A stretch of DNA of 59,672 bases, counting the filler, from Sphacelaria rigidula (lineage: Eukaryota), in assembly GCA_964200075.2 (NCBI GenBank). It is 8 parts of 8 records of this genome, joined end to end, with 100 filler letters (N's around TTAATTAATTAA, not from the genome) between each part and the next. Parts side by side here need not be neighbours in the genome. Positions count along the whole stretch, not along the records: positions 22,417 to 29,788 come from CAXNAA020015210.1; 7 more parts are not named here. One strand, 5' to 3'. The notes under the pieces are model-generated. The model was not told the origin of the DNA. It searched no databases and was given only the letters and a program-made list of their open reading frames with translations. Within the stretch, counting starts at the first letter, position 1. Each line of letters begins with the position of its first letter. Shown here piece after piece: positions 4,728 through 39,552 of the stretch. Position numbers and translations under genes: made by a program.

Positions 4728-4886
4728 GTATGTATATGTAAATAAATGGCTCTGCGGTTATATAACCCGTTTTCAGACATTTTCTGCACCTTATATATTT
4801 TTTAAATGGTAAAGATTAGTACTGTCATTCGGTTACCATCTAGCACCACAGAAGCATAATTTGAAAGGTAACCTGCAAGTATTGCA

Positions 4887-5482
4887 CACCCTCGACAAAA
4901 TAGGGGCAATATTCGCAATAAAGAAACACTGTACTGTGTAGAGTGTAGGCCTCATGCAACTATTTTCGGTCGTGCCATATATGCGATAGGCGTATACTTT
5001 ACGCAGTATGATTTTTTTCACTGCAACTATGCTGACCGCCTTCTGTCCAGGGTGTGAAGTATCGTACACCCTGGACAAGAGAGTACGTTGACAAAAATTT
5101 TAGCGCCTACAGTAGAGAATCCCTTGTCTTGTACCGGACAAACCATTTCATCAGCAAAATGCATACTGTACGCAACACACTTTTTGTCATTGTAAATGCA
5201 ATCTATCTATAGTCATTGTCCAGGATGCGGTATCTTTCAGTTCCAGCACCAGTTCCAGCACCATACCCAAGGTTGTTCTATGAGCCCCCCTCCGAAACAA
5301 GAAATACACAGGGGGTGGCATACCTTTCACACCCTGGACGATATATGACGTTGGCAAAACGTGTACCGCCTTTGGTACCGAATCCATTGTCTATTGTACT
5401 GGACATTAGCTTACCTCAGCAAAACGTTGTACCGTATAACCTTTGCCAATGTAATTGCAATCGATTGTGTGTGTCCAGGATG
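4887..5482. mobile_element. Cluster of three short (~155-170 bp) MITE-like elements with CACCCTGGACA...TGTCCAGG(G/A)TG termini (4887-5054, 5067-5227, 5330-5482)
   Basis: Each element is bounded by 11-bp imperfect inverted termini. The second and third are collinear homologues internally. Confidence 0.65.
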
Positions 5483-6534
5483 GAAAGTATTGTCTGACGG
5501 GTTTGACAGGGTACAGAGAAATGGCTCACCTGTTTTCTTCTCTATTCGGGCAATAATCTTTTTGAAAAAAACCATGAGCAGGAATTACCTCTCGTGTGGT
5601 GTTTTTTGTCGGAGCAACATCAGTACAGTGCAGTACTGTACTGTACTTTTTTATCACACAATGGCCGAGTACATCTTACTGTACCCTACATTCGAAGATG
5701 AACACAGCACACCGCGCGATAGTGGTGACCCTACGACTTCGGTCGGTATCCTCAACTGCGGTGCCGCATGACTTCTGTTTTGAAATCATTGGATCAATCA
5801 AGTGTTCACATTTGCCGTTGTTATTAGTATTTTACAGCTAAAGATAAAAACAAATTTGATGAGCCCACGGGCTGCTGGAGTGAGAGGTGATCAATGCTTG
5901 ATAGCAGAGATAAATATGGGCATCAGGGACAGGTGGGCTGATCGCTTGGCGCTACAAACTCGTCTCCAGTAGGGGCGGGGTGGGGGGGTCTTAGATTGTG
6001 GCAAAATTTTGATTCTTCATTTCATGTTTTTTTTTTTGTCGGTATGCACCCGTACGGTCTCCGGCCGAAATCGTTGTAGGTCAATGTGGGCAGTTTGTAT
6101 GAGAAATGGAGATTGTGGTGCAATATTTACTTGATATTTCAGTCATTTCAAGTCGCCCGCCGACATGGATAATGTAATGTTTGTGACTACTGCGACAAGT
6201 TTTATTTTTTGATATTTTTTTTGCACGCTGCATATTTGTGGATAATGTAAGTCGAATCCCTCTTTTCTTCTTCTTCTTTTCATCGAAACTCTCAGAACTG
6301 TTCTGCCCGTTGTAGTTTAGATCAACACCATTAGAACACTTTTTTTTCCTTCTTTGACTACTGTGTACGACAAGCACCGTGGCTCCACGTAGACCTCTCA
6401 CCATCTTTATTTGCATTCTTAGGCTGTGACCTTTATACCTGTTGCTGTTGTTGTAGGCTGATTCGCTTGTACATGAGCCGTTCGCGTTGGTTGCTTTCGT
6501 GCGATGTGCTCTGGTGTTCTTTGTTGTTGTTCAG

Positions 6535-9269: not shown

Positions 9270-9800
9270 ACGTCCCATGGGGGATTCATCGATAGGTTGA
9301 GCTGGTGTGGGCAAGCGTGACAGGAAGTCGGCGTTTGCATTCGGGGGACCTGTGCGGTACTTCAGTTGAAACTTGTAAGACGACAGGATTTCGAACCAGC
9401 GTTGGACCCTAGCGTTGTGTTCCGCCATTTTGGCAAGGCTTTCCAAAGACTTGTGATCGGTATAAATCAAAAACGGGATGTCATACAAATACTGACGCAG
9501 ACGTCGCACGCCCCAAACAGCTGCGCCGGCCTCTTGTTCCATGACAGACCAATTCTGTTTATTCGGAAACGTGGTGCGACTCAGATAGACAATGGGACGA
9601 ACAGTAGCATCGACTTGCTCCTGTTCTAATGTGCAGGCAAACGCAATTTTGGAAGAATCTGTGTGGAGCCGGAAAGGGCGGGAACCCTGCTCCGCGGCCG
9701 ACCAGTCGGGGAAGACGAGAATCGGCGGGTGCGAAAGGGTGTCAAGGAGGCGGCGGACTGTTTTTTCCATTTCCAATGTGAACACAAATTTCACCCCTTT
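9270..9800 (-). pseudogene. Gypsy RNase H domain
   Basis: PFRLHTDSS; LEQ; NWSVMEQEAGAAVWGV; FLIYTDHKSL; NANADFLSR. Confidence 0.92.
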
Positions 9801-11359: not shown

Positions 11360-11680
11360 GTGGAAAAACGAAGCCAACTATCTCGACCCAACAAAACATC
11401 AAAAGACATGGAACCGTCGGGCACGATTAGTACCCATACGGACAACCGAGCAGTGGGAGTAGTATCCTGGTAGAATTGTACACTTAGTCTCACCGATTGA
11501 TTAACCGTAAGAGATGTGGAGGAACCAAACCCACCAAACACACGAGGGTGCACGGTGGACAATGCTTGTCCGCCGCGCCCGCGTTGATCATCTGATGCCA
11601 GCAGCTGGCTGTGATGAGCGTTTGAGGTGAACCAGAGTCTGGTAGTGCAAGAGCTATCAAATGACAGTTTGCACGCGCTC
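11360..11680 (-). pseudogene. Gypsy aspartic protease (frameshifted)
   Basis: ALPDSGSPQTLI catalytic motif and downstream DVLLGRDSW in adjacent frames. Confidence 0.8.
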
Positions 11681-14600: not shown

Positions 14601-15759
14601 CAGGGTACTGTCGACAGTTTTCAATCGACATGTAGGTCCACGCACTCCGCACATGTAGCGTTCTTTCCCCTTTTCAATCACAAAAGGGTAAAACATATGT
14701 CGAAGGCATACAGCAAACCGTATGTGTGTGGGTGTTGGTTAACAAAGTGTAGCAGCAAAGAGACAAGGAAGAAAATGAAAGTTGGAGTCATCCTACGGTA
14801 GGGGGGGGGGTATTTGGTTGCACGGAAAAAGAGGCTCATAAGTGNNNNNNNNNNNNNNNNNNNNNNNNNNNNNNNNNNNNNNNNNNNNTTAATTAATTAA
14901 NNNNNNNNNNNNNNNNNNNNNNNNNNNNNNNNNNNNNNNNNNNNTTTTGGGTACTTTGAGGCATGAGTTCAGGGTCAAACAGGGTAGAGGTATACTTGTG
15001 TCCACTGCAGGTGGAATAGTCCAGAAGAATGTGTGTCCAGAATCGGCAGGTCAGAGAGTTTGTACTTGATTACAGGCAGATATCAGAAAAATAGGGGAAT
15101 CTTGGTATCTAGCGGGGTTTTGGATCAGTACATAGCGAGGTTTTCAGGCTTTTCGGGTGAGGTACGTTGGCGGGATAAAGAGGTCGACCGGGGAGAGTGA
15201 ACTAGGTTTTAGATTCACCCCCCCACCAAGACATTTCCTACCTCCCTCTTTCTCACTCCACTCAGTTTTACTGTTTTTAGAGTGGAGCACTGTTTGTACA
15301 AGTGCAAGGTTGGATTCTGTTGGGTTGAGTTATAGGAAGCTATAAACAAACAACATATTTCAGTCTTTGGGGCATCAATCATCTCTGTTCGACGCTCCAC
15401 ATCTTCTACTAGTCTGCTGGTGTCTTGGTCACGTCTTCACAGTCACCCATAAAAGCGACTGAACCTATCAAGAAAAAGGAGCTCAAAAATATTTCCTGAC
15501 AGTACCGTATGGAATTCGTTTTCTGTGCAATAATAGGCGTAATAGTCGATACTGCGCACAGTACACGTTTTGACAATGTATTCTTTTGTCCACGGTGTGC
15601 AGCAATCAAGGCGGTGCCAATGCTTGCGGTAATTCCGGTTCTTGCGGTTTGTACTCGTCTGGGCTCGTATTCTTCACTTGTGAGACACTTGACGCGATTT
15701 TGGCCGCAGAACAGAGACTATCGCGATCACATGTCTTGGACACTTTCTGATTCGCAAGG

Positions 15760-21688: not shown

Positions 21689-22417
21689 TCACTCCGCGTA
21701 GTGTTCATTGCTGTTAATATGGGGTACAGCATTTTTACGCACATGCAATATGCTCGACCTTGCAGGGCGGGCGCAGTGCTGGCGAAAAAACAGATCACTT
21801 GTGACAGGGGTGGGTATCGAACTCGAACCCTAGTGTCAAGGAGACGAACGCGTTGAGTGCCATATGGAAAGTAGCTAATGCAGTGGCTTGGGTCTCTCAG
21901 TATGAGTGCCAGGAGATACCATGGTGTCAGCCTCACCAAGCTCCCACGTGGGCACACTCACACAGACCTAGCTATCCATCCTTGACTTATCACAAGTAGA
22001 TTCATTCATGTTCAGACTCTCGATAAGGAACTCACGTGTTTGCCTAGCATCATGTTTTATCTACAAGCCTCCCTTACTCAGTACAGCCGCAGGGCAGCCA
22101 TAGGAGCAGAGCGTAGTGATGGCCCAGTGTAGACCACTGCAAGGGCAGCAACTGATCAGATGGGGCGCCGCAGCTCAGACGGGGTGTCGCAACCCTAACT
22201 CATGACAGTAGCAAACGCGATAACAACGCGTCACGGAATCCAGGGTCTACGAGCAGACCCGCACAGAGTATATCTTGCAACGCCTCTGAGCTTCATCACA
22301 CTAGCCCATCCTAGACNNNNNNNNNNNNNNNNNNNNNNNNNNNNNNNNNNNNNNNNNNNNTTAATTAATTAANNNNNNNNNNNNNNNNNNNNNNNNNNNN
22401 NNNNNNNNNNNNNNNNC

Positions 22418-22996
22418 CGTGTTATGGATGAGATAAAGGGCTCCTAACAATTCTAACCTCAGAAATTATTGTGTACCCCTACCGTAGCATCACTCTATTG
22501 CCATCGAAGTTTTCTGACGTCTCTGTTAGTTTCATGTGGGTACATTTCCCAAGTCTGCTCTCAATGCTGTATTACTCGTCGTTTTCGAGCATCCGAGTAT
22601 TTTATGAGCTGCTGCCATCTGTACTGTTTCAAACTTCTGGACCATCGTCACATCCCCCCCCCCATACTTCTTCTGCATACTCCAGCTTTGGTACAATCAC
22701 GTTCATCAGCATACACCTCTTTATCCTCGTGTCTATGTGCGAGTCTCTGAGGACCACGTCCATCCTGCCCATCTGTTCCTTGCCCTTTTTTATTACTCTA
22801 TCTACTTACGTGTGCGCATCCCCCAAGAAACGTTTCTTGAGATATACACGCCAAGGTATGTATACTGGTCTACGATCGGCAATCACTCTCGTCATCAATT
22901 TCATTTGAACTCCACCAGATGTTTCTGATCTTCGTTACAGACGAGTACCGCGCATTTGTTAACGTTCGCTTTCACTCTCCATTTCCTAGTGTATTC
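22418..22996 (-). mobile_element. Non-LTR retrotransposon (LINE) RT C-terminal remnant, degenerate
   Basis: Manual minus-strand translation gives EYTRKWRVKANVNKCAV, IVDQYTYLGV, PKLEYAEEVW and ILGCSKTTSNTALRADLG, typical of post-YADD non-LTR RT regions. It probably continues across the gap to ~21900. Confidence 0.8.
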
Positions 22997-23328
22997 TGTT
23001 AGAGGATTCACTCGGAACCCCTTTGTCGTGGTCGCTACAGTTGGCGCAATGGCGGTTGAGCCAAGCAAGCAGATAGGCTGCTTCGGAGTGTAGACAGAAG
23101 ATAGTGTTCAAGGTGCCGCTTGAGGGCAAGACAATACAAACAACCCGCCGGGGTACACGGTCAAAGAGAAGAGGACTTCATATACAACAGCTGCTATCCC
23201 ACAGTATACGCCCCCACATCAGACCAAACCTTCGTGACCGGTACCTGCGATCCCAACACTAGATATATGCAAAGTCAGTACCATACGAAGCGTTGAAGAG
23301 CATGGCTCCGCAGCCTCATTTTCTAACA
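22997..23328 (-). repeat. 3' LTR of the Copia element (332 bp)
   Basis: Terminal inverted TGTTAGA...TCTAACA, immediately preceded on the minus strand by polypurine tract GAGGGGGAG (23329-23337). Confidence 0.85.
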
Positions 23329-23471
23329 CTCCCCCTCGACGCAAGTATAACTCTTGACCCTTCACACTTCCCCTTAATGCAAATACGTACTAGTTTCAAA
23401 CATCCACATCGGTATAACCGTCCCGGCACTCAAGGACGAAATGACAAGCCAAAGCTACAACCAGGCTGTAC

Positions 23472-25020
23472 TCATATTTTGAATGTGCTGAACAGTTTGA
23501 CGAGATGGAGGTGCCTGTGTTTGCTGAGGTACTTGGTCCCCATGTCTGCGAGTTGGTCTTTGGCCTTGACGTAACGAATGTTGATCCTTCCTTCCTTGAA
23601 TAATTCCTGAATGAAGAAGTACCGTAGAGCTACGTGCTTGACTCTCGAGCTGTACGTTCGTTCGCCTGCGACGTGGAGAGTTGAAGTGTTGTCGATGTAG
23701 ACAGGAACGGAGTTGAAGCGTGTGCCAAATCCCATCTCCCGCATCATATTCGAGCAAGACATGGCTTCCTTCATGGTGAGTGCAGCAGCCACGAGTCCTG
23801 CTTCCATCGTCGATTGCGCGGTGAGTTCTTGTAGTCCTACCTTAAAACTGATGGGGCCATTCGAGAGAAAGATCAGATATGATGATGTAGATTTCCCGTT
23901 GTCTGGGTTGTTACCCCAGTTCGCATCTGAGCACACCGTCAATCGGAAACCGCCCTGGTTGTAGGTTATGACATGATCTGTAGTACCGGCCAAATATCGA
24001 AGTAAGTGTTTTGCAGCTGTCATATGCGCCTTCGACGGATTGGACATCGCCCGCGCCAGTTGATTCACGGCGTATGCAATGTCGTTGCGTGTCACGTGAG
24101 CGAGATACATCACACTGCCCGTAATGGCCTGGAAACTCTTTTTGTCCTCCTCGTTCAAAGCTTTCTCCCTCGGCTGTTCCAGTGACATTTCTTGTCCCAC
24201 ACCAGGAGTGTATGCTGGTTTTCAATTCGCCGTCCCGTATCGTTACAGGAGAGGCTTGGTGTAATTGTTCTGGCTGATGGTGACTGTCTTCCGAACGCGA
24301 TCACGAACAACCTCCACTCCCAGCACTAACGATACATCTCCCATGTCCGTCATCGAGAAACGTCGCATCAATTTATGCTTGATCCTTCCCAGCACTTTGA
24401 CATCTTCCCCAAGCAGTAGGACATCATCGACGTATAAAGTCAAAACGTAGACGTCGCCGCTCTCTTGGTATGTTGTACACGCAAGGGTCCGACTTAAGGC
24501 TCTTGAATCCAATCTCCGCCGGGTGTGTGTCGACCGTTCCCCACCAGCGGTTTAGATCTTGACGGAGGCCATAGAGACCTTTGTGGAGCCGCATTACCAT
24601 CGGGGTTCCATTGGCGTCAAACTCCTCGTATCCTGGCGCCATTTTGACGTAAACTTCTTCCTTGAGTTCGGCGTTCAGAAAGGCGGTGTTGTGGTCCAAT
24701 TGCCAACACACCAAGTCATACTCCGCCGCTACAGCTAATACCATGCGGATGCTTCGGATCCTGCAGACCGATGCGAAAGTGCTGCCACAGTCGACGCCGG
24801 GGGCTTGTCCCCAACCCTGCACGACGACTCGGGCCTTGTGCGAGAAATTCGCTTTCTTCTTGTACACCCATCGGGACCCGATTAACCTGTGTCCAGTTGG
24901 GACGGAGATTTACGGCACTAGAGTATACACGTTGTTCCTTCTTAGGCTATCTCCTCATCTGCTGCCGCCTGCCACTGTTCCTTTTCTGAGAGACTCATGG
25001 CCTCATTGAACGTGTCTGGC
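23472..25020 (-). pseudogene. Copia reverse transcriptase + RNase H (frameshifted)
   Basis: HKARVVVQGWGQAPGVD; QLDHNTAFLNA; LHKGLYGLRQ; LYVDDVLL; GSVMYLAHVTRNDIAYAV; SDANWG; AQSTMEA; KHVALRYFFI; DQLADMGTK. Confidence 0.95.
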
Positions 25021-25558
25021 ATTATTTCGGTTTTCTCCCCCACTGAACAGCTCGAGAGGTTGGTAGTTGTGTAAGCATACTCCACGACTGATTCCGCCCC
25101 AAACGTCTGGTGCACGGCATCTGGTAGGAGCGCGTTGATGTGTATTTGCAGCCGCCGTAGCTCGGAGAGCATTTTGTTGTCCACAGTGGCTGAAAGGTGC
25201 GCAGAAGCTGCGTCGTCGTTGTTGGTGTTGCGTTCCCTGAAGGAGCGCGCTGCAATGCCTGCGCGCGTCACGGCGGGAGTCGCTTGATGACGAGAGTGTC
25301 GAGAGCGGTTGAGCAGTGGTGATTCGGCTGATGATGTGGACTGGCTAACTTCGTCCCGAGAAGGGGATGCAGTTTGTTCCAGCGGCGCACGGCTCTCCGG
25401 TGATGCCGTTGGCGACGTCTCTTCACGAGGTATATCATCGTCGTGCAGCATGTCCCGCTTGGTGATGGCGCTGATTCTCTCCAGAAGCTCGGCCACCTGT
25501 GGATCGTTAGATATCCCGCTGGTAGTGATATGATCAACGGAGGCGTGAGCCGGTTGAG

Positions 25559-27145
25559 CTAGTACGGAGGTGTGATCGCGAAGAGAACGGGAGAAGTCGT
25601 CGTCGGTGACGTAATTGTGGCCCTCTCTGTTGCTGGAGTCCTGGTCACCAAGTGAAAATTGATGTATCCGAAGTTGTGGCTTTCCCGCCGGGGTAAGGTG
25701 TGTCGGAGTCTCGATGAAGACGATGTTCCTGCTCTCAATGATACGTCGCGTTGCTGGGTTGTAGACTCGGTAGCTCTTACTGTCATTACTGTACCCAACT
25801 TCTCGTCCTTTAACTGCTTTGAGAGTAAGTTTCGAATTATGCCGCTCGATATGAATGAAGCCCTGGCTTCGACGACTCGAAGGTGTTTGAGATCCGGTTC
25901 TGTCCCCTTCAGCATCTTATGAGGCGACTGCATGTCAAGCGCCGAATGCGATGATCTGTTTGCAAGATAGGCCGCTGTGAATATCAATTCCCCCCAGAGA
26001 AAAGTCGGCAAGCCACTGTCAGCAAGCATGCACCGGATCATGGCGCCAAGCGTCCTTCCTACGCGTTCTGACAGGCCGATTCGTTGTGGTGTATTGGTGC
26101 TTGCAAACTCTAGCAATATGCCTGTCTGTCGGCAGTACGACTTGAACTCGTTGCCAATGAACTCACCGCCTTTGTCTGGCCTTAGTTGCTCGACCTGAAC
26201 ACCGCCAGGAATTGCCATTAACTGTAAGTAGGACTGAAATGCATGAAAAGTGCCGTCCTTGTTTTTTTGGAGGTAAATCTCTTCTGTCCATCTGGTATAC
26301 TCATCGGAGATCATGCAGACGTTCTTGAAGCCTCCCAGCGCCTCCGGCATGATCGGTCCCATCAAATCTGTCATGACTAGTTGAAAAGCGCGTTGCGCTT
26401 TGTTGTTGGCTGTCTTCGGGTGGGCCAGTTGATGACTTTTCCCAATAGCACAAATATCACAGTCCGGAATGACTCCACCGAAATCCACCCCGTTGCTTCC
26501 GACGTTTTTGAGAAGATTCAAACTATTGCTGTTCGGGTGTCCCATCCTCCGAAGCCACAGCGTGGCGGCGTCTGCGGCTTGCAGAGCCAGTCCAGATGCG
26601 TCGTTACCGCTGCTTAGTTCCAGAGAGAAGAAATATAGGTCGCTCTCCAGTTCCTGGAGCGGAACGGTGAAGTCGTTTGTATCGAGTCTTAGGTTGTTTA
26701 TTTTGAAAATAGATACAACGCCATATCGTGTCGCCTGTTTGACGGAGAACACGTTCCGCCCCAAGCCAGGCACGACCAAACACGGAATCTGAACCAGGCG
26801 TTTGACCCCTTCGCCGTCTTGGATGTGTCCGCGGAACAGTCCTTTACCAACCCTCGTCAGTTTGTGCCCCCCTGCGGTGGTGATCGTATGCGGGGTCGCC
26901 AGTTTCTGGCAGTTGTGGAGTTTATACCGTAGCCCCGGGATGAGGGTATCATCGAAGTAATGTCCCGACGCACCACTGTCTACCATAACACTGACATGGC
27001 TATTGTTACCCTTAGTCCACTTGTCAAGAGGGGGTCCTGCCGCGAGAGCCATCCCATCATCAGCATCGGTGATTCCGCCGAACGTTTCAGTGGTATCGTC
27101 GAGGTTCGACGTGGCCCGAGAGTATAATGAGTTCCCGAGCGTCAA
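25559..27145 (-). pseudogene. Copia protease + GAG-pre-integrase + integrase
   Basis: VDSGASGH; LWLRRMGH..CDICAIGK; TDLMGP; DEYTRW; DKGGEF; TPQ.IGLSERVGRTL; SGLP.FLWGE. Confidence 0.95.
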
Positions 27146-27392
27146 CTAGACGTAGTGGACTACGGCTATTATGACTAGCGCGCGCACTAGTGGGGAAAGT
27201 GTCTCCCTGATTCCCCGCAGTAGGTTGCGAGCTCTGCGCCAGAACCCCGGACCCCCGGCCTCCTCTCCGTCGGCCACTTCGAAGGCGCCAAAGAGGCCGC
27301 TGCTGTCAAAAGAAGCAACAGGTTTGTTCGTTGGAGCGAAAGGCCAAAGGTTGTCCGCTTGGGGGTGGTTCGCTTTGGGCGCTTCTAGGGCA

Positions 27393-28329
27393 TTAAAGGA
27401 GATGGCGGAAGGGTGCTTCCTCGTACCGGTGGCTGATGAATACCCTGACCATTGTGCGAAATTGGCTGTCTGCTGGTTGCGCTGTTGCAAGGAACGGCAC
27501 TCTTCTTCGCTGTGGGTTGTTGATCTGTGGAAAGCACCACTTGCCTACATTCCCATTGTTTCCCCCGTCCTGACCGTCTCCCCCTGTCAGTGCTCGGGTC
27601 GCACTTCGGGCGGGGCAATTTCTCCCAACGTGACCTTGCTTTCCGCAGTGGTAGCATGTTACTTGATTTCTTTTACTGCCATCATTCCGTCCACTAGCCT
27701 GCATAGCAACCCCGCGGTCTGCGACCGAGTTGGTGGCGTCCGGTTGTGAAAGATAGTCAGCATACATGGTGCTGACATGTATCTGAGGTCCGACAAATGA
27801 AAATCGCGCCTCTCGCAGCTAGCAATGCGGCCCTATCGTACTCGGCAGGTAAGGCTCGAAGGATAATGTGTCCTCATATCGTTCGTCAGGTGAGGACTGC
27901 CCCATTTCCTCCGTGGCGGTCACGGTAGCCATCCATGACAAACACAAAATCTTCCGGATCATCCCCTGACTGCATTGTCGTATTGTGGAGTATATAATGG
28001 AATTCCCTTCGTGCCTCTTTTGTGTTGCCGTCATATTTTCCCTGCAGCGCTGCCCTGCTTGGCCATTGCTGACCCCGTCCTCCTGGGTTTTCCCCATGAA
28101 ACGTCTCACGGTATTGTTCGCTGATTTTTCGGTGGTGAAAAATAAGATGCTGATCATGTCCTTGTTTGTGCGATTCCAAGCCAGTGAAGGTGCCGTATCA
28201 CGGATTGACGGTTCATCACCAATTATGGTGCGTACGGGTCTCTGCTGCCCCTGCAGAATTTCCGCGGCCGCGCTATGGTGGAGGAAGAGGATCACCCGTA
28301 GTTTGTCTTGGTACTCTCGGGAACTAGCA
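27393..28329 (-). pseudogene. Copia gag with zinc knuckle (frameshifted; 5' end abuts the array element)
   Basis: CYHCGKQGHVGRNC knuckle; gag-like KYDGNTKEARR...MQSGDDPEDF. Confidence 0.85.
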
Positions 28330-29273
28330 CACCCTGGACAATACAATATGTAATATATATTGCCCGCTCAATATATCGAGGCATCGGGTGGTCAATATAT
28401 ATTGGGCGAGCAATATGATGACACGAGAGAGAGTCAATATATATTGTGCCACCAATATATCAAGGCTCGCGGCATGCAATATATATCGACCGAACAGTAT
28501 ATCACGACATGCGCCACCTCAATATATATTGGCCGAGTAATATGTTGGTGCGAGAAGGTACCAATATATATTTATCGAGTAATATATTTGCTGCCACCCG
28601 AGGTCAATATATATTGACGATCCAATATACTCGACACCCGAAGCGCCAATATATATTGCCGCCGCAATATGTCGTGCGTCAATGCGTCCAATATATATTG
28701 GGTGGACAACACACGAGGGAACCGACGGTCACAATACATGTTGATGTAGCAAAATATATTGATTTTCAACATATATAGATTGGAAAGTGTATTGGAATTA
28801 GTGTTGTGGGCAGTTCTTTGTTCGCGGGCGCCATTCAAAGACGTAGTTTACATGCCGAAAATGCTAAATGTATTCCTCCGCAAGCGTGTTCAATATATAT
28901 TGGCTGCACAATAGCTATCCAATCAGCGTGCGCAATATATATTAGAAAAACAATACCTCTGCATGGTTTGCGTTCAATATATATTATGGTAACAATATGC
29001 TACGCATTGCCTCGACTCAATATATATATTGACACTTCAATGCATACACAGCCGACATGCACAACATATATTGAATGTTTTATTCTCGGAGCAACTGCAT
29101 GTCCAATATATTTTGTCATACATTACTTCATGATCATGACACGAGCAATATATGTTCTTCTTCAATATCTCCGAGGACATCTCAACACAATATATATTGA
29201 AAGGACGATATTTGCGCTGGCTCCAATACAAAGTATTGATATCATATTGGAACATATTATATTGTCCAGGGTA
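28330..29273. mobile_element. TIR-bounded element carrying a 42-bp-period repeat/variable-spacer array
   Basis: About 21-bp TIRs: (C)ACCCTGGACAATACAATATGT / ACATATTATATTGTCCAGGGT(A). About 18 internal units of CAATATATATTG-N6-CAATAT-N18/19. Confidence 0.8.
28351..29215. repeat. Array of ~18 units: CAATATATATTG + N6 + CAATAT + N18-19, unique spacers; two blocks (28351-28760, 28891-29215)
   Basis: Unit starts: 28351, 28393, 28435, 28477, 28520, 28562, 28605, 28647, 28689, 28732; then 28891, 28933, 28975, 29018, 29062, 29104, 29146, 29188. Confidence 0.9.
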
Positions 29274-29633
29274 TAAGCAACACAGCCCCGGTGACCACAG
29301 GGGTACCAAAGGCGCATATCGACCCGCGTTTTCTGTCGTCGTGATGTTTAGCCAAGATAGTTATATTACATGCTGGAAAGGGGATGGGCGGCTCCGCACC
29401 GGTGATCAGATAGGTATCAGGAGGCATATATACCGGGTCGCCTCTTCTGTCACCATATGTTTTGACCAGCATACATATATTTATTTATATATACATCAAA
29501 CACATTCGACAACTTTCCGCAGTAATGCACACGAACTTCTGCGGCTCCCTCTAAAGCTTTTTCCAATCTGCACGGACTCCGGCATCCATCGCGTCTGGAT
29601 CTCTCCCAGAGCATACACGATACTTATAATATC

Positions 29634-29727
29634 TAATATATATTGACCGGCCAATACTTTCACCCACGCAGACCCAATATATATTGACCGGTCAATATGT
29701 TCTCATCAAGGCGACCCTAATATATAC
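29634..29727. repeat. Orphan mini-array of the same 42-bp unit (2 full units + 1 partial)
   Basis: TAATATATATTG accggc CAATAC (29634); CAATATATATTG accggt CAATAT (29675); TAATATATAC (29718). Confidence 0.8.
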
Positions 29728-32182
29728 TTCCTCTGTCCCATAAGTAAAGTCCGTTATGTTTATACGAGCCCTTAACGGTGTCCGATTTNNNNNNNNNNNN
29801 NNNNNNNNNNNNNNNNNNNNNNNNNNNNNNNNTTAATTAATTAANNNNNNNNNNNNNNNNNNNNNNNNNNNNNNNNNNNNNNNNNNNNGCAACCCCCGGC
29901 CCCAGATTGGGGCCAACCACCCCCACCCCCAAAGGGTATTCTAAAATTTCTAGTAATTATTCCCCCCCCCCCCCCCCCCTACCGTCGGATCTTATCCGTC
30001 CTTTTTACTTCAGTACCTCCTTGTAGTCTCTTCTGTTTCCCCTAATCGTTCTGCATTTTCGAGTTTCCTTTGGCTAGTGCTTCCGTTTCGTTCATGTTGA
30101 GTACGTCTATTTTTTTGCCACAGCAGGATTCCCTCTGCACAAGTCAACTTAACAATGCAAGAGGTACAATAGTGGGCCACCTGTGAGTTTCCTAGTCGCG
30201 TGCTCAAGCCATATCACGCTCCGGAGGTTTCCTAGTCGCCGAGGCCGAGACTGTACACTATCGTGAGGCAATCAACAGTGGTACGGTAGATGAGGACATG
30301 CAATAGCACGACAGAGCGTGGGCAGCTACGTATCTTCTTGAACAGGGTTAATCATTTGGGAAACAATCCAGCAGTGAAAGGTACATCGCACATCCTGACA
30401 CCGCAAGGACTTTCTGCTTGTATGATGATTGCAACCCTGTTTTCAGCGATCGCAGTCAAGAAAATATTTGGACGTGTCGCCGACACCTGTAGGAAGGCAC
30501 AAGTATTGTACACGTGGACTGCCTACATTTGGGTGTCAGGAAGTTGATAGATTTACTTTCGAGTTTACCTATTGATAGTTTCGACCAATGAGATTGATTT
30601 CTGACACGGTTGAGAGGGCGGGTTTGGGGCGTGTCCGCCGAAGGCTCATCAGCAAACAGCCGCTCATGAAAGTAGGTGTAGCTGAGGAAGATTGAGGAGC
30701 TTCCCGCTCTTATTCCATGCGTGTAGGTCGCGCGTGTGTCAACGTGTTTTTTGTCGTGCTTAAAACATATTCGGTTACTGTATCGAGGTGTGGGGTGAGG
30801 AAATCCGCGAATCTTGGGGCATGTGGTCAACGTAACACGCAACCGTACCCATACGCACCGCCTGCACCAAGCACAACCCCCACCAACCACGCCACGCCCC
30901 TCAGCTGCCCAAAATTATGAGGGGGTTGTGCAGACGTCCCAACTCGATGAACAAATAACTGTACTACTTTTGTACCAACAGTGACGTGCGGCATGTGCCC
31001 CGTTGTATAGATGGACGTTGTCTCCCTAGGAAAAACAGTAATTCCGAGCTCCTGACTGAAGCGGCCATGAAAAAAAAGCGATTTGACACGCGGGTGCTAG
31101 AAGGGCTACATGTTGCACATAATCACTGGCACGCTCAACGTGACCTGGTCTGAGTCGCGGTCGTCGTGACGACGGAGCGGTGTAATCTAGTGCCTTCAAC
31201 AAAGAGCCCGGACGACGAACTGCAAGTAAGAAGCCAATGCCCCCGAATGTGATGGACGTTCATTACGGGCAAGGCGGAGGCGGAGGGGGGGTTGTCCAGT
31301 TTTCCGGGGAAAGGAACCTGGATACCATGGATAATGGTGATAGTCAGTGATGTACTGTGCCAGAACTTGACTGGCCTCCGAGAAAAATGAGCAATCTCCG
31401 AAAACATTTCATGTTTGGCTGAGAAACATAGCTTCGGCCACCGTAAATACGCGCAGGTGGGCTACGGCCGTCTCAACGCGTAGAGGGAAGCGTTCGAAGG
31501 TACCAACATACGCTTGTTTTAGCTCCTCTATGGGGCGTACAACGATGCAGAAGCTCCGGTAAGCCAGTTTTCCACATTCGTATGCTTGTTTGCCACCAGA
31601 AACGGCCTACGGCCGTGTTCAAGCACAATATTGTTTCGATTGCAAAGGGCTGCATGGCGGAAAGCAAACATTTCGATCTGAGAACTCAAGACAGGTCGTC
31701 ACACATGTCCACGTCCCTTATGTTGGTGTGACAACCCGTCCGATCGGATATTCCTCGTCTCTACCGTACTTTCGGTCGGAAACTATTGTGCCAAGACACG
31801 CCAACAGCCCTCAACAAATCAGAAGGACGACGGTGAACGGCCACAACCATGCTCAACATGAATTTCCATCCTCAATTGTCTTCCCTCTTTCGAGGGCATG
31901 CTTCGAAACGTTTTTTTCGATCGAAGAAGGACAGTTTTCCTTATTATGATCATTTATTTGTCGCACTTTGAACCCTTCCCCTTCCTTAGGGTGAGTCTGT
32001 GGTCCCAAGGGATCAACGCATCTCTTCCCGGTACACGCCTTGCATTTTGGTCTCGCGTATTGGGTCATGACTATCAGCACTCTGGCACCGCGTCAACTCA
32101 CGCCAAACAAACTCAGACGACTACTTTGCTTACTCGCGTTCTCATGCGTTTGACGGTGGAACTCAGACACTCCGACGAATAA

Positions 32183-32261: not shown

Positions 32262-32267
32262 CGCAAA

Positions 32268-32612
32268 GTGTCGTCGTCCCATCTATTCTGGGCGCCGGTT
32301 TACACCTTCCGGTATGTGTAGACGCATCAGCCGGGGTCACACAGGAGGAGGTCTAACACACGAGTTTTTTTTTGCTGTTTGATTTGTTTTACTTCATCAC
32401 CTTCCTTCTGTGCTACTTGCCCCTTCTGTTTTATCGCGAGCGGGGTTCAGCAGTCCCTTCCCCTCGTTGACCGTCAAGTGGAATTTTGTGCATCTCGCTC
32501 TCCACTGTTGGGCGTGGTGTGAGAAACAATCCCAGATCGCTCCGAGATTCGAACCCAGGACCCAACCGTCAGAAGGTTTCGAGGTTACCGACTGAGCCAC
32601 TGGGGTGACCGG
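32268..32612 (-). mobile_element. tRNA-derived SINE, full-length copy
   Basis: Minus-strand head has A-box TGGCTCAGTCGG and B-box GGTTCGAATC. Body and 3' end (cagaatagatgggacg) are shared with 39207-39552. Confidence 0.8.
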
Positions 32613-34709: not shown

Positions 34710-37700
34710 TGTACAAATCTCATTCACTGACTGCCAGTACATGAACACACAGCTGTGCTGTGACAGGCGTTGATTTTGAACCCCCGTGCTGGCCAGTCTA
34801 CAAAAACATATTAAAGCAGTAAGTTCATCAAAAAGCCGCAAATAATCTGCGGTTTATTGTACTTTAATAGGGATATGAATCACTACCAGCACGTTATAGT
34901 GCATCTCTGGACCGTACCACACTTTGCATGACATACGGTACCGTACTGCACAGTACGCAGCGTGCGCGACGTATGGCTATCTATATAATTTAGATGCCTG
35001 TAAGTTTGGATATGTGGGGGTGCTATATACCGTCTGCTGCGGTAGACGCGTTGTTACTAGCAATTGTTTGTGCAAGCCAGTGTCCGTGTGTGGTTGTTTC
35101 ATACGATATAGGATGTGAAATAGTAGTAGGCAACGTGCAGTACAAACCGCGCAGGATCATCTGCACTCTCTCCTTACAATGCAGCCTGAAAAGGGCGCGA
35201 ATCTTTGTACTGCCTGCACTGCTCATGAGTGTATACGCAGGTTGGTCGTCCGCCGCGGCGTATACCACGCAGCTCCGTCGCCGATCTCTATCATAAAAGA
35301 TGCTCAAGCTTTCACCGAAAATTGGTTGATTTCTCTCATTGATTGTCACACTTTATTTTTCCTCCAAGGGGCCCAGTCGTGATCTCCTGATAGACGACGT
35401 AGACGCGGCATACCCAACTACTGCAGTGTATATCTATACTTGTGCCTAACTCATGCTCTTTGCTGCAGGGTTGCGGTGGTAGCTGGGAATACGTTGTGAG
35501 GAATTGGCGCACAGAGGACATAGATGTCCTCTAGAGGCTCGATGTAGAAAATCTTCAGGTGGTGAAAGTACACGCTGGAGGATGCTGCATCGCCATGTCC
35601 TCTGGACTCGCGAAAGTGCTCTAGAAGCCCTCGTCGATTCCTCCTCCAGGGGAAGGATGTTCATGGTTCCCTCCGAGGGACGTTTACCATAACCACGTGA
35701 TAACACAGAAGTCCCTGGAGCATCAGATATCCTTTACAGGATTCGTTTACTGTCCACGCCAGCGGGATAAAATACCCTCTAAAGGGGATTTCATCCTTTA
35801 CAAGATCATTTTACATTGGAGAGTAGGATGAAAATCACGATAGTGGAGTTCAAAGAGGAGTCGAATGGCCGCGTGTATGGTAGCGCGTGGACAAAAAATT
35901 GAATGGATGAAGTCAGATATCACGCGTTCACAGAACCAGGCAAACTCCACACAATAAATTCTCGGCCGCGACGGCAAACATGCAGCATATACAACACCAG
36001 TTGGCCACAGGGATAAAATACTGCAGTAGTCGGGCAAGATGTACTTTGCTTTTTCTGGCGAAAACTCGAGCATCTCCTTCGATGGTAGGGGTCTGCGACG
36101 GAATTCCGTGGTAGGGTTGGCGACTGACTCGCGTACATGCTCATAGACAGTGCAGGCGATATGAAACTGTACGTTGGTCAAGTGCTTTTCACCTCGCGTT
36201 GTGTGCAGATAGTATAGAGATATTAGCGAGTATGGGAAAACGTTTTTTTCACATCTTATTTAGGAGTCAGAGTGAAACGAAAAATAGCCGGTAACAGTGC
36301 ACTTTCCGCTATAAAGTATTTTTTATAGCGATTTTTCAACAGCGAAGTGCCGTCTGCACCTCTTCACTCTGGAAACCGTTGTGCCTCTTCAGAGTTCAGC
36401 GCGGAACAAAGAAGAACGCCCATCTTCACCTCAATCATCACAGCCAGTTCGAAATCAATATACCCCAACAAGCAAAGTGGGACATCCATCAAAACTGTCA
36501 TGCTTATCATAATGGACGATTCACGAAGTAGAGACGATTTGCATCGCAGTCAGAAGACCTCCCTGACGCTGCCACGGTATCAGCATCCGCTTGGTTGTGC
36601 TGAGGGAATATTAAATGCTGGGCGGATACACGCCGTTGGGTGCAGTTCCTCATTTTTGCCAGCTTCAGCTGTAAAAAGATGGTGAGAACGATTCGCAGAC
36701 TACAACGCACAAGCAGTACTACACCTGTCTACATCGCCATTCCGTCAAAGGTCATGGCTTCTTGCATCACCGTTATGGGTGGTACGTTGAGAACGCAGCA
36801 CGATGCGCCCCTGTCTGTTATTTGAAAGTGCCGCGTACTGTTGTACTACTGTACAACTGACTGTCTGTACGGTTCTGCATTGCACTCTCGGTACTGCACT
36901 GGCTGTGCTCTACACTGCACAGCACTACAGCACTACAGACACAGTTTTTCGGAGAACTCCGAATTTATCAGGAATGGCGAGGTGCTTGATGACTCTAGAA
37001 CGCTTGCGAGCGCCACGGCGTACACACAGAGCAGCATGCAATCAAGCCAAAGCGCTGCGTTGAAGTCCGAATTTTGGTGAATTTCTTCATCAGTAGAGCT
37101 TCGGAGAAAAACTCAGGCTGCTTCGTTTTCACGGGAGTCTGAGCGCAGAGTCTGAGAAGTGTGAAAAATTCTGAGATCCCCCATAAACAAAAAAACAGCT
37201 TCGATGAATGATCGTGGGTCTAAAAAATAAGTTGAATTTCTCATGTCTTCCGGCGAGAGNNNNNNNNNNNNNNNNNNNNNNNNNNNNNNNNNNNNNNNNN
37301 NNNTTAATTAATTAANNNNNNNNNNNNNNNNNNNNNNNNNNNNNNNNNNNNNNNNNNNNTCGCTGCCGAAAGCTTGGCCAACGATTCCCTCACACTTTGT
37401 ACCAGCTTCTATCCTTCAAGATCTAAAAATATCTACGTACCGCTTGGTGCTTCTTCTCGTAGATCATGTGATCGGTCATCGGTAAGGCGATTGTTTCATG
37501 AGTGCAGTAGGTCTTGGCATTTATGCCATGCATTGTTCACCATTTCCCTTCATTGTGCGCTGTTTGCACCTGATGTCGAAAATTTCTGGAAATGGCTGAC
37601 CAGACTTCCACCGCCCAATGGAAGCCGGTAAGGTTATACAGGTATCTCACCACGAGACCCCAACCTCCATGTGAATTTGACATGGAGGAGGTGATGACCC

Positions 37701-37849: not shown

Positions 37850-38492
37850 GATTCCATGTCCATGTCTGGGCTGTGTTACAGTAGGTGAAATAAAAAGGAG
37901 GGTTAGCTTCTCTATTCCATGTCTATGTCTGGGCTGTTATATGTTATAGCAGATTGAATGAAAAGGAGGGTTAGCTGCTCTATTCCATGTCTATGTCCGG
38001 GCTGTTTTATAGTAGGTTAAATAAAAAGGAGGGTTAGCTTCTCTATTTCATGTCTATGTCCGGGCTGTGTCATAGTAGGTGAAATAAAATGGAGGGTTAG
38101 CTTCTCTATTTCTTGTCTATGTCCGGGCTGTGTTATGGTCGACTAAATCAAAAGGAGGGCAAGCTTCTCTATTTCCTGTCTATGACCGGGCTGTGCTCAT
38201 AGTAGGTGAAATAAAAAGGAGGGTCAGCTTCTCTATTTCATGTCTATGTCCGGGCTGTGTTATGGTAGGTTGAATAAAAAGGAGGGTTAGCTTCTCTTGT
38301 TCCTGTCTATGTCCTGGCTGTGGTAAACTAGGTTAAATAAAAAGGAGGGTTCGCTTCTCCATTCCCTGTCTATGTCCGGGCTGTGTTATAGTAGGGTAAA
38401 TAAAAAGGGGGGTTAGCTTCTCTATTTCCTGTCTATATCCGGGCTGTGTTATGGTGGGGTACATAAAAAGGGAGGTTAGCTTTTCTATTTCG
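37850..38492. repeat. 63-bp minisatellite, about 10 copies
   Basis: GGAGGGTTAGCTTCTCTATTTC.TGTCTATGTCCGGGCTGTGTTAT.GTAGGT.AAATAAAAA recurring at 37897, 37965, 38028, 38091, 38154, 38218, 38281, 38344, 38407, 38470. Confidence 0.95.
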
Positions 38493-39206
38493 TGACAGTC
38501 TCTACATTTGTCTAGGTTTTGGTGGCTTGTTTTACAGCGCCGTTGCCACTCGACGCCAACCCAAGAGTCTATAGGTGAGGGGGGGACCAAGCCGTCCGTC
38601 CCCTGGTCTACCGTCGAAGCGTTGGCGGATGCGGTCAGCTGCCGTGGACAGAGATCCTTGGCATTCAGATATCTGAGGCCGTCGGGGCAGACGGGGCAGG
38701 GAGCAGAAGCAACTATAGAAACCCCGCAAAGCTCACCAGACTTTTTGGTTTTTGTCGGTGCTAATTAATCAATTTCTTGCAACAAAATTAGCAGAAAACA
38801 TCAAAATAGTCTTGATTGATCAATTTCTTGCAACAAAAGTGAAAACAAAAACAAAAACACGACGATTTTCGAAAGAATACCCTCCGGGGGGAGGGGGACG
38901 GGGGGCTACGTGTCCGAAACCTTCCTCCGCGCTGCACCCTGGCGAAACCCCTTTGTATGCGAAATTATGGAGGCGCATAAGAAACAAAAGCCTAGGTGAA
39001 CCCCTTGTTACTGAAGATCAGTCCCACAAGGGTTAACTCTTTGACCACCAGGGGTCATCGTGTGAGTCACGCAGTAACCTGTCAAGTGAAAATGATGGGT
39101 ACTCAGTGATGCTGCTACGGTAGGGGCGCACAAATATTTTGTGAGCTTAGAAGTGTTAGGAGCCCTTCATCTCTCATCCGAAACACGACTTACGAAATAT
39201 GTGAGA

Positions 39207-39552
39207 GTGTTGCCGTCCCATCTATTCTGGACGCCGGTCTACACCTTTCGGTATATGTGGGCGCACCAGCCAGGGTCACACAGGAGAAAAGTCAACACAG
39301 GAGTTTTTCTCTTTTTTGTTGGTGATTAGTACCCCATCTTGCTTCTGCGGTGCTTGCCTTCATTTTTTGTCGCGAGAGGGGTTCAGCACTCCCTTCCCCT
39401 CGTCGACCGTTGAGTCGAATTTTGTGTGCCCACGACATAATCGCTCTTCACTGTCGGGCATGGTGTGAGAAAAAATCCCAGATCGCTCCGAGGTTTGAAC
39501 CCACGACACAAGCGTCAGAAGGTTTCGAGGTTACCAACTGAGCCACCGGGGC
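39207..39552 (-). mobile_element. tRNA-derived SINE, second full-length copy
   Basis: Collinear with 32268-32612. A-box TGGCTCAGTTGG, B-box GGTTCAAACC. Confidence 0.8.

What the first reader, a model, noticed from the sequence alone, without database searches (positions are those of the whole stretch)
28330..29273. TIR-bounded array of ~18 fixed-period (42 bp) units with two conserved motifs and two unique spacers: CRISPR/TIGR-like architecture in a eukaryotic mobile element
Seen: each unit is the 12-bp palindrome CAATATATATTG, 6 variable nt, CAATAT, then 18-19 variable nt. Example N6/N18 pairs: cccgct/atcgaggcatcgggtggt, ggcgag/gatgacacgagagagagt, tgccac/atcaaggctcgcggcatg, acgatc/actcgacacccgaagcgc, ccgccg/gtcgtgcgtcaatgcgtc. 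Period is mostly 42-43 bp. The GC-rich spacers are essentially unrelated to each other, unlike an ordinary minisatellite such as 37850-38492, where the whole unit is conserved. Both blocks have the same polarity rather than mirror symmetry, and the right block is more degenerate than the left. ATATTG-N6-CAATAT forms an inverted pair around a 6-nt core, and 42 bp is about four helical turns. Known: alternating repeat-spacer-repeat-spacer units are the layout of TIGR guide arrays; unique spacers between palindromic repeats define CRISPR arrays; phased subterminal motifs are typical transposase-binding arrays of CACTA-type elements. Inference: this is either a helically phased protein-binding/recombination-site array or a transcribed array processed into small guide-like RNAs. 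No cognate protein gene is visible in this window.
Basis: partly seen in the sequence, partly recalled or inferred. Interest (0 to 1): 0.85.

Follow-up and report, generated by a model that had tools for sequence, protein, structure and literature searches.

The report
Phased binding-site array in algal transposon
This is one copy of a very abundant, gene-less jumping-DNA family in a brown alga; its evenly spaced palindromes are most likely docking sites for the family's transposase rather than a CRISPR-like guide array, because other genomic copies carry the same "spacers" in the same order.

Summary
CAATATATATTG (up to 1 mismatch) occurs 18 times against 0.13 expected. The units follow each other at 42-44 bp, each as 12-bp palindrome, N6, CAATAT, N18. 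The spacers are close to unrelated, and a 21-nt inverted repeat lies at both ends.

DNA contigs of the same organism match the array, spacers included, by the thousand at 83-99% identity. They differ mainly by whole-unit gains and losses. No Cas, Nop or transposase gene was found. The spacers match nothing else in the window. The per-unit hairpin is weak. Phased RNA could not be tested.

The host is a brown alga. The terminus CACACCCTGGACAA is shared with three ~160-bp MITE-like units that carry the same CAAT/ATTG dyads and an 8-bp flanking duplication.

Best reading: a non-autonomous TIR DNA transposon, most likely hAT-like, with KDZ and EnSpm as rivals. Its phased dyads would be subterminal transposase-binding sites.

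Caveat: the left end is sharp, but other copies run on past the right "TIR". The mobile unit is therefore longer than 944 bp and is cut by the contig end. This is a new family of a known kind, of moderate to low interest.

The parts
28328..28350 (+). Left terminus of the repeat family: CACACCCTGGACAA, then CAATA/CAATAT half-sites. This is the left arm of the 21-nt inverted repeat.
   Evidence: Inverted repeat. In one search, loose ends in 121-126 contigs start exactly at 28328 with diverse flanks, and depth jumps from ~20k to ~117k. The same 13-15-mer forms the ends of the three MITE-like units in piece 1.
28351..28731 (+). Array A: 9 regular units of 42-43 bp (12-bp palindrome, N6, CAATAT, N18-19).
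28732..28790 (+). Decayed units with palindrome-like motifs at 17-18 bp spacing.
28791..28890 (+). Non-repetitive middle segment. It is conserved in other copies and deleted in one abundant variant.
   Evidence: depth ~60k, and a joint 28417>28890 skipping 472 bp at depth 433.
28891..29229 (+). Array B: 8 units of 42-44 bp with the same polarity as A. It is more decayed and its spacers are less GC-rich.
   Evidence: The family consensus restores a perfect palindrome at 29062-29073 (29065 C>T in 64-78 contigs).
29224..29275 (-). Inverted copy of the terminus (arm 29252-29272), preceded by the dyad CAATAC-AAA-GTATTG at 29224-29238.
   Evidence: 29259 A>G in 91-98 contigs makes the inverted repeat 21/21 in the family consensus. 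Contigs nevertheless bridge this point (records 3-8, 12-15, 22-24).
29276..29633 (+). Sequence colinear with the array in other copies, so probably part of the same, longer repeat unit.
   Evidence: depth 113-135k at 29292-29457, and contigs span 29107-29489. There is no TSD at 28328/29275. The copia continuation is not found downstream.
29634..29724 (+). Array C: two full units and the start of a third, with the same unit design. It is interrupted at 29725.
29725..29788 (+). Terminus of a different, extremely abundant short repeat inserted at a TA inside the third palindrome of array C. It is context, not part of the array family.
   Evidence: loose ends at 29725 (59-67 contigs) and 29758 (105-127 contigs), depth 438k; single copy in the window.
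23472..28327 (-). Ty1/copia gag-pol fragment, cut at its 5' side by the array element.
   Evidence: copia-family contigs run on with other sequence beyond 28328.
4877..5492 (+). Three ~160-bp MITE-like units: M1 4885-5056, M2 5065-5229, M3 5328-5484. They have the same CACACCCTGGACA termini and CAAT/ATTG dyads next to their right ends. The block is flanked by identical 8-mers AAGTATTG (4877-4884 and 5485-5492).

Best explanation
The interval is the left ~950 bp of one copy of a very abundant, non-coding TIR DNA-transposon family of a brown alga. The copy is inserted into a copia retroelement and cut off by the contig end.

The unit carries three 6-bp half-sites: CAATAT|ATATTG-N6-CAATAT. This gives two overlapping dyads. 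The unit repeats every ~42 bp, about four helical turns, so all sites face the same side of the helix.

Most likely mechanism: these are subterminal repeats bound cooperatively by the DNA-binding domain of the family's oligomeric transposase, supplied in trans. They would recruit and align the transposase at the end, as in hAT elements.

What is shown and what is inferred:
- Shown: the repeat-family status, the sharp left end, the shared terminus, the conserved spacers, and the position-specific conservation.
- Inferred: protein binding, and the superfamily. hAT-like is preferred because of CACAC...GTGTG termini, a 21-bp TIR and an 8-bp flanking duplication. KDZ or EnSpm remain possible.
- Inferred: the spacers are filler kept for length and GC content, not for information.
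For: (1) Family status. 8,855, 8,338 and 6,991 contigs of three DNA runs lay on the 2.5-kb stretch. Depth rises about 5-fold at 28328. There 121-126 contigs have loose ends with unlike flanks (agreement 0.39).

(2) Spacers are inherited. The longest listed contigs span 4-7 units at 83-89% identity (for example 28328-28529 with 29 differences, and 28562-28845 with 40). Motif-only likeness would give about 58%. About 100 contigs per position agree on spacer letters that this copy has changed (28383, 28559, 29008 and others).

(3) The family consensus has a perfect 21/21 TIR and a perfect palindrome where this copy is mutated (29259, 29065).

(4) Variants differ by 42, 84-86, 214 and 472 bp. Where the 42-bp variants join, 12-13 letters fit both sides, which is the palindrome. 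That points to unit slippage, not spacer acquisition.

(5) Motif positions carry 1.4-2 bits and spacers about 0-0.6 bits. At lag 3, motif identity is 95/108 and spacer identity 51/144.

(6) The same terminus ends three unrelated ~160-bp MITE-like units. The only ATTG-N6-CAAT outside the array region in 57.6 kb lies in M2 near its right end. Two of the 5 CAAT-N2/3-ATTG sites outside the array region lie in M3 next to its right TIR.

(7) 8-bp flanks: M1 has AAGTATTG/AAGTATCG, and the M1-M3 block has AAGTATTG on both sides.

(8) Precedent. [quoted passage not shown] It lists KDZ with 8-bp TSDs and 'complex termini featuring tandem repeats' (PMC12477816, supplement 1). Hermes BED domains bind phased, partly palindromic subterminal repeats cooperatively (PMC10368747, passages).
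Against: - No autonomous copy or transposase was seen, and no genome was available.
- This copy has no target-site duplication at 28328/29275.
- Contigs bridge the right inverted repeat, and depth stays high to about 29457 and beyond. So the 944-bp 'TIR-bounded' unit is not the mobile unit here, and its true right end is unknown.
- Only 1 of 3 MITE-like units has its own 8-bp duplication (7/8). M2 and M3 taken alone do not.
- The same polarity of arrays A and B is not the mirror arrangement expected of two transposon ends.
- An array this long and regular, about 20 units, exceeds what characterised hAT ends show.
- AAGTATTG does not fit the nTnnnnAn hAT target consensus (recalled, not tested).
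- The hAT-2_Ec32 sequence could not be read, so the match is to three descriptors only. One of them, the 8-bp TSD, is an assumption of the curators.
- At least two joints (table 5c) carry a spacer not present in this copy. Spacer content is therefore not strictly identical in all copies.
Confidence: 0.6

Rival explanations
1. A TE-borne minisatellite with no binding role. A 42-bp tandem repeat carried inside a transposon, expanded by slippage and then decayed. The AT palindrome would survive for mutational or structural reasons, not because a protein reads it.
For: Unit-number variants occur, with junction overlap in the palindrome. A weak residual spacer likeness remains in array A (z 2.7; a 126-bp shifted self-match of 68.6%). 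Tandem repeats inside brown-algal TE termini are common.
Against: Neutral decay or homogenisation should treat all 42 positions alike. The 63-bp satellite at 37851-38494 does so, at 84% overall. Here 18 positions are nearly invariant and 24 are at chance level. The left spacers are CpG-rich (26 CG in 216 nt), so faster C-to-T decay of the spacers is not evident. The same dyads recur beside the ends of unrelated MITE-like units that share the terminus.
Confidence: 0.15
2. The same kind of element, but of another superfamily. It could be the subterminal region of a large KDZ or EnSpm/CACTA-type transposon. The internal inverted copy of the terminus would then reflect tandemly repeated or nested ends that became fixed in the family.
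For: The repeat unit continues past 29273 and the copy is longer than 1.46 kb. [quoted passage not shown] Giant TEs there carry nested insertions fixed among copies.
Against: All listed KDZ termini but one begin GGG (KDZ-1a begins CAGTA); none begins CACAC. The 2-bp TSD of EnSpm is not seen at M1 or at the array copy under either reading of the terminus. The CACAC-GTGTG, 21-bp descriptor is that of hAT-2_Ec32.
Confidence: 0.2
3. A guide-RNA array (CRISPR/TIGR-like). The array would be transcribed and cut into ~42-nt units whose N6+N18 spacers guide a protein to targets.
For: There is a superficial repeat-spacer-repeat-spacer layout with unrelated spacers. A few copies hold a unit with a spacer absent here (table 5c).
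Against: Spacers and their order are inherited across about 100 or more contig variants per position. Spacers have no match above chance in the other 57 kb: best 12-14 of 18, against a mean of 13.4 for shuffles. No Nop, Cas or TnpB domain appears in the 126 ORFs scanned. The spacers are 6 and 18 nt rather than two of ~9 nt, the unit is 42 nt rather than 36 nt, and there is no UG...CCA box D/C pattern. The per-unit hairpin is about -4 to -10 kcal/mol with z between -2.0 and +0.3. Rfam gives no match. No such array was found in 125 viral or metagenome loci, and there were 0 hits in prokaryote genomes.
Confidence: 0.02
4. A binding array for a host or other non-transposase protein, carried and spread by the element. 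Examples would be an origin-like iteron set, an insulator, or a scaffold or partition site.
For: The arrays are much longer than a transposase needs. Both have the same polarity rather than mirror symmetry. Helical phasing is typical of iteron arrays (established knowledge, not tested here).
Against: The dyads are tied to this particular terminus in two unrelated non-autonomous families. Half-sites start directly after the 11-13-nt tip at both inverted ends. Nothing points to a host factor.
Confidence: 0.05

Closest known systems
hAT-superfamily ends with subterminal repeats: Hermes (PMC10368747, passages read); Ac/Ds AAACGG repeats (recalled); hAT-2_Ec32 of Ectocarpus (PMC12477816, supplement 1)
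   Same: A short TIR (21 bp) with CACAC...GTGTG termini, as noted for hAT-2_Ec32. An 8-bp flanking duplication in sister elements. Many short subterminal repeats, with a palindromic pair directly after the TIR. In Hermes, phasing matters and binding is cooperative.
   Different: Here the sites form a strict 42-bp tandem lattice of about 20 units filling nearly 1 kb. Both arrays share one polarity. Hermes has 17 and 14 irregularly spaced 4-bp STRs. No transposase gene was seen. The hAT-2_Ec32 sequence itself could not be compared because the FASTA supplements were unreadable, and its 8-bp TSD is only assumed by its curators.
KDZ and EnSpm transposons of brown algae (Ectocarpus curation notes, PMC12477816)
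   Same: High copy number. 'Complex termini featuring tandem repeats' (KDZ, 8-bp TSD). 'Complex palindromes in subtermini', 21-bp TIRs starting CACCC or CACAG, and tandemly repeated ends (EnSpm). Nested insertions fixed among copies.
   Different: The listed KDZ termini begin GGG, or CAGTA for KDZ-1a. EnSpm has a 2-bp TSD, which is not seen here. No sequence comparison was possible.
Emigrant MITE / Lemi1 (pogo-like) of Arabidopsis (PMC1636448, abstract read)
   Same: A non-autonomous element whose TIRs and subterminal repeated motifs are bound cooperatively by the transposase of a related autonomous element.
   Different: Emigrant belongs to the Tc1/pogo superfamily with a TA TSD (recalled). 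It has few motifs and no fixed-period lattice.
TIGR arrays (PMC12045711, passages read) and CRISPR arrays
   Same: Alternating conserved and variable segments in a fixed-length unit. The repeats are palindromic.
   Different: TIGR has two 8-12-nt repeats, two ~9-nt spacers, a 36-nt unit, box C/D motifs, a neighbouring Nop-domain Tas gene, and occurs in prokaryotes and their viruses. Here the repeats are 12 and 6 nt, the spacers 6 and 18 nt, the unit 42 nt, no such gene was found, the host is eukaryotic, and there are thousands of dispersed copies with inherited spacers.

Membership tests
CRISPR array | Spacers differ between loci or strains because they are acquired. The array is a single locus or a few loci beside cas genes. 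| tested here: not met
   The same spacers in the same order occur in about 100 or more contig variants per position. The family is dispersed, with diverse left flanks. No Cas domain appears in the 126 ORFs scanned.
CRISPR array | Direct repeats of about 25-36 nt (as stated in PMC12045711). | tested here: not met
   The conserved blocks are 12 nt and 6 nt.
TIGR array | Two alternating 8-12-nt repeats, two spacers of ~9 nt (up to 12), and a 36-nt unit. | tested here: not met
   Repeats are 12 and 6 nt, spacers 6 and 18-19 nt, and the unit 42-43 nt.
TIGR array | Box D (UG) at the start and box C (CCA) at the end of both repeats. | tested here: not met
   The repeats read CAATATATATTG and CAATAT on + and the same or ATATTG on -. 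Neither has a UG...CCA frame.
TIGR array | A neighbouring Nop-domain Tas gene, in a prokaryotic or viral host. | tested here: inconclusive
   No Nop domain appears in the window's ORFs, and the host is a brown alga. Only 7.4 kb of true context is available.
Non-autonomous TIR DNA transposon (MITE-like) | Terminal inverted repeats. | tested here: met
   21 nt at 95% in this copy and 21/21 in the family consensus (position 29259). The same terminus occurs on three other short units.
Non-autonomous TIR DNA transposon (MITE-like) | Many copies with unrelated flanks at both ends. | tested here: inconclusive
   The left end qualifies: 121-126 contigs have loose ends at 28328. The right inverted repeat is bridged by contigs, and depth continues past it.
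Non-autonomous TIR DNA transposon (MITE-like) | Target-site duplication. | tested here: inconclusive
   There is none at 28328/29275. M1 has 7/8 identical 8-mers, and the M1-M3 block has 8/8.
Non-autonomous TIR DNA transposon (MITE-like) | No coding capacity. | tested here: met
   The one array ORF searched (28422-28775, +) has no protein relatives. The Pfam scans did not include the ORFs lying wholly inside the array region.
hAT superfamily | 8-bp TSD, short TIRs, subterminal repeats. | tested here: inconclusive
   The TIR is 21 bp and subterminal repeats are present. The 8-bp duplication is seen only at the sister units. The descriptors match hAT-2_Ec32, whose own 8-bp TSD is only assumed.
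hAT superfamily | Transposase with a BED finger, a DDE core and a hAT dimerisation domain. | not testable with these tools
   There is no autonomous copy in the window and no genome is held.
EnSpm/CACTA | 2-3-bp TSD with a CAC... terminus. | tested here: not met
   The terminus starts CAC. However, the 2 or 3 bases flanking M1 and the array copy are not direct repeats under either reading of the tip.
KDZ | 8-bp TSD and complex termini with tandem repeats (Ectocarpus notes). | tested here: inconclusive
   Tandem-repeat termini are present and an 8-bp duplication is suggested. The terminal letters differ from all listed KDZ families. The transposase is not testable.

The most novel reading that the evidence does not exclude
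The array is transcribed and cut at the palindromes into ~42-nt phased small RNAs. Their N6+N18 segments would act as guides for a protein encoded by the still unseen autonomous element. That would make it a eukaryotic, transposon-borne analogue of TIGR or bridge-RNA systems. A milder version: the lattice nucleates a transposase filament, or acts as a transposase sponge that regulates the family.
Probability: 0.02. Interest if true: 0.9.

Novelty: new member of a known kind. Interest (0 to 1): 0.3.

Why it matters
The finding shows that a layout which looks like CRISPR or TIGR to the eye can be produced by a transposon end. Only the protein-contact positions and the spacing are under constraint. 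The decisive check is whether the spacers are inherited across copies.

For brown-algal genomics it flags an abundant DNA-transposon family that I did not find described. The family has an unusually regular 42-bp lattice of triple half-sites. If its transposase is found, it would be a clean natural system for testing how site phasing and multiplicity drive assembly of oligomeric, hAT-like transpososomes.

Tried and rejected
- Earlier findings of this scan, by place and by sequence: nothing. By words: only analogues from other genomes.
- Viral contigs. The 24-nt unit pattern gave 6 loci, each with a single motif. The 20-nt terminus gave 0.
- Metagenome contigs. The two-unit pattern gave 0. Of the 125 loci held (6 viral and 119 metagenome), 0 had a phased array.
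- Prokaryote genome contigs, two-unit pattern: 0.
- Rfam: 0 matches at gathering score on the whole window, and 0 at E up to 1 on 28200-29788.
- RNA folds. The long-range z-scores of -4.7 and -7.5 merely reflect palindromes pairing with one another. Single units are not better than shuffles.
- Spacer homology between arrays. C against A units 7-8 scores best (32), but that lies within the background of A-against-A comparisons (up to 33). The lag-3 periodicity is not supported in register.
- 29274-29633 against the MITE-like units: no score above shuffles.
- The copia continuation after the element was not found in the contig.
- Array ORF as a protein query: no relatives.
- RNA evidence. No RNA holder is listed among the sequencing runs. 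Run X6 is only guessed to be RNA and covers the element thinly. This says nothing on expression, and phased small RNAs could not be tested.
- Literature. The palindrome appears in 0 papers. The 12-nt terminus appears in 10 papers, all unrelated by title and abstract.
- The Ectocarpus consensus FASTA supplements could not be read. A direct comparison with hAT-2_Ec32, KDZ or EnSpm ends is therefore missing and may bear on the superfamily call.
Full report
**What the window is**

N runs recur every 7,472 bases, each as N44 + TTAATTAATTAA + N44. The window's own copia protein sits on a contig of length 7,372. The 59.7-kb window is therefore eight separate 7,372-bp contigs joined by linkers. Only 22417-29788 is true context for the finding.

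No genome is held for the window. The best named relatives of the neighbouring copia integrase are brown-algal proteins: Sphacelaria rigidula at up to 84% identity, and Scytosiphon. The host is therefore a brown alga.

- CAATATATATTG with up to 1 mismatch occurs 18 times against 0.13 expected, and 0 of 100 shuffles reach that count.
- Successive palindromes lie 42-44 bp apart in two blocks, 28351-28732 and 28891-29188.
- In register, the nine regular left units read 12-bp palindrome, N6, CAATAT-like hexamer, N18-19. The eight right units have the same polarity but are decayed.
- The 18 motif positions carry about 1.4-2 bits. The 24 spacer positions carry about 0-0.6 bits.
- Spacers are nearly unrelated. 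Mean pairwise identity is 0.307 against 0.266 for shuffles (z 2.7) on the left, and 0.263 against 0.251 (z 0.75) on the right.
- A 21-nt inverted repeat (28331-28351 / 29252-29272, 95%) lies at both ends.

**Behaviour in the rest of the genome**

Contigs from three DNA runs of the same organism and one possible RNA run were laid on 27300-29788.

- 8,855, 8,338 and 6,991 contigs of the three DNA runs aligned at 85% identity or better.
- Summed depth jumps about five-fold at 28328. There 121-126 contigs per run have loose ends whose preceding letters disagree (agreement 0.39). This is a sharp family terminus with many different left flanks.
- Copia-family contigs run on with other sequence beyond 28328. 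The junction is therefore an insertion into, or truncation of, the copia.
- The longest listed contigs cover four to seven consecutive units at 83-89% identity. Examples are 28328-28529 with 29 differences and 28562-28845 with 40. If only the motifs were shared, identity would be about 58%. The spacers and their order are therefore inherited.
- About 100 contigs per position agree with each other against this copy at spacer positions 28383, 28559, 28622, 29008, 29042, 29050 and 29055.
- The family consensus repairs this copy's mutated palindrome (29065) and makes the inverted repeat 21/21 (29259).
- Copies differ by 42, 84-86, 214 and 472 bp. Where the 42-bp variants join, 12-13 letters fit both sides, which is the palindrome. 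That is unit slippage or unequal exchange.
- Against full uniformity: two joints carry a spacer that this copy lacks, so unit content varies somewhat between subfamilies.

**The right boundary**

- Depth stays at 113-135k for 29292-29457.
- At least six distinct contigs in one run bridge 29273, spanning 29107-29489.
- This copy has no flanking duplication at 28328/29275.
- The copia sequence that other copies show beyond 28328 does not resume anywhere downstream in the contig.

The mobile or amplified unit is therefore longer than the 944 bp and exceeds 1.46 kb here. It includes 29276-29633 and array C. At 29725 it is interrupted by the terminus of a different, extremely abundant short repeat, inserted at a TA inside the third palindrome of array C. 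The contig then ends.

The inverted copy of the terminus at 29252-29272 is thus internal in this copy. Tandemly repeated or nested ends fixed within a family are described for Ectocarpus KDZ, EnSpm and other giant DNA transposons (PMC12477816, passages and supplement 1).

**Link to a transposon terminus**

CACCCTGGACAATA with up to 2 mismatches occurs 8 times against 0.46 expected. Five of these lie in another contig, where they form the inverted ends of three ~160-bp non-coding units:

- M1, 4885-5056
- M2, 5065-5229
- M3, 5328-5484

The shared tip is CACACCCTGGACA. M2 and M3 are about 70% alike. M1 shares only the ends.

M1 is flanked by AAGTATTG and AAGTATCG. The whole M1-M3 block is flanked by identical AAGTATTG 8-mers. 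The weak consensus left of the array family's terminus ends in a similar AT-rich 8-mer. This suggests an 8-bp target-site duplication with an AT-rich preferred target. However, M2 and M3 taken alone do not show it.

The dyad motif travels with the terminus:

- ATTG-N6-CAAT occurs ten times in the window. Nine are in the array region and one is in M2, about 25 bp from its right end. None is in the other 56,969 bp.
- Two of the five CAAT-N2/3-ATTG sites outside the array region lie next to M3's right end.

**Tests of the guide-array reading**

- Scanning 126 of the 139 ORFs of 100 aa or more gave only retroelement domains, a zinc knuckle and one sub-threshold hit.
- The N18 spacers match the other 57 kb no better than shuffled spacers do: best 12-14 of 18, against a mean of 13.4.
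- Single units fold into a 7-bp AU hairpin of about -4 kcal/mol that shuffles equal (z -2.0 to +0.3, six units). The strong long-range z-scores are palindromes pairing with each other.
- Rfam has nothing.
- No phased array of this unit exists in the viral, metagenome or prokaryote collections searched.
- TIGR arrays, as described in PMC12045711 (passages), have two 8-12-nt repeats, two ~9-nt spacers, 36-nt units, box C/D motifs and an adjacent Nop-domain gene, and occur in prokaryotes and their viruses. The tested array features are not met here, and no Nop-domain gene was found in the 7.4 kb of true context.
- Phased small RNAs could not be tested.

**Most likely mechanism**

Each unit holds three half-sites, CAATAT|ATATTG-N6-CAATAT. 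This gives two overlapping dyads. The 42.3-bp mean period is four helical turns, so all sites lie on one face of the helix. Half-sites begin directly after the 11-13-nt tip at both inverted ends.

Position-specific conservation with free spacers of fixed length is the signature of protein contact sites. In Hermes, BED fingers bind short subterminal repeats. A quasi-palindromic pair next to the TIR is bound cooperatively, and exact phasing is crucial (PMC10368747, passages). Lemi1 proteins bind the subterminal motifs of the Emigrant MITE cooperatively (PMC1636448, abstract).

[quoted passage not shown] It lists KDZ families with 8-bp TSDs and 'complex termini featuring tandem repeats'. I therefore read the array as the subterminal transposase-binding lattice of a non-autonomous DNA transposon, mobilised in trans. 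hAT-like is the best guess. Binding and superfamily are inferences. The repeat-family facts are shown.

**Rivals and verdict**

The rivals are:
- a functionless TE-borne minisatellite, which is hard to square with the 18-versus-24 position contrast and the CpG-rich spacers;
- a KDZ or EnSpm assignment;
- a host-protein array;
- the guide-RNA reading, at about 2%.

I found no paper containing the palindrome or describing the terminus. The family therefore appears undescribed, but it is a new member of a known kind. Interest is moderate to low. Its main value is as a caution for scans looking for CRISPR-like arrays, and as a very regular natural subterminal-repeat lattice.

Noticed in passing
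window 7373-7472, 14845-14944, 22317-22416, 29789-29888, 37260-37359, 44731-44830, 52202-52301: Regular N44 + TTAATTAATTAA + N44 linkers. The window is eight 7,372-bp contigs stitched together, so features must not be read across them (contig length 7372).
   Followed up: yes
window 29725-29788: Terminus of another, far more abundant short repeat, starting TA|CTTCCTCTGTCCCATAAG. Summed depth is 438k, and 2,536 in the possible RNA run against about 50 nearby. Loose ends lie at 29725 and 29758. By recall the tip resembles Stowaway-type (Tc1/mariner) MITE ends with a TA target. It sits inside the third palindrome of array C.
   Followed up: partly
window 4877-5492: Three MITE-like units with the same terminus as the array element. 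Two abut with exactly 8 bp between them, and the whole block is flanked by identical AAGTATTG. This could be a composite that moved as one unit, or serial insertions into a preferred target.
   Followed up: partly
window 1864-2252 and 3239-3747: An 82-bp satellite rich in GGTATCG motifs, present twice in the first contig at 75-87% identity between copies. The same GTATCG core appears in the flanks of the MITE-like units.
   Followed up: no
window 37851-38494: An ordinary 63-bp satellite of about 10 copies, with about 84% identity spread over the whole unit. It is a useful contrast to the array.
   Followed up: partly
window 7659-12461 (-): Ty3/gypsy-type pol, decayed and split over several frames: RT (weak), RNase H, integrase zinc-binding domain and integrase core domain.
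   Followed up: no
window 55288-56011 vs 57063-56370: A 735-bp inverted repeat at 67% identity within the last contig. Its nature is unknown.
   Followed up: no
window 32267-32605 vs 39206-39551; 22418-22492 vs 39187-39110: Dispersed repeats of 81-83% identity shared between different contigs. One abuts the start of the contig that holds the finding.
   Followed up: no
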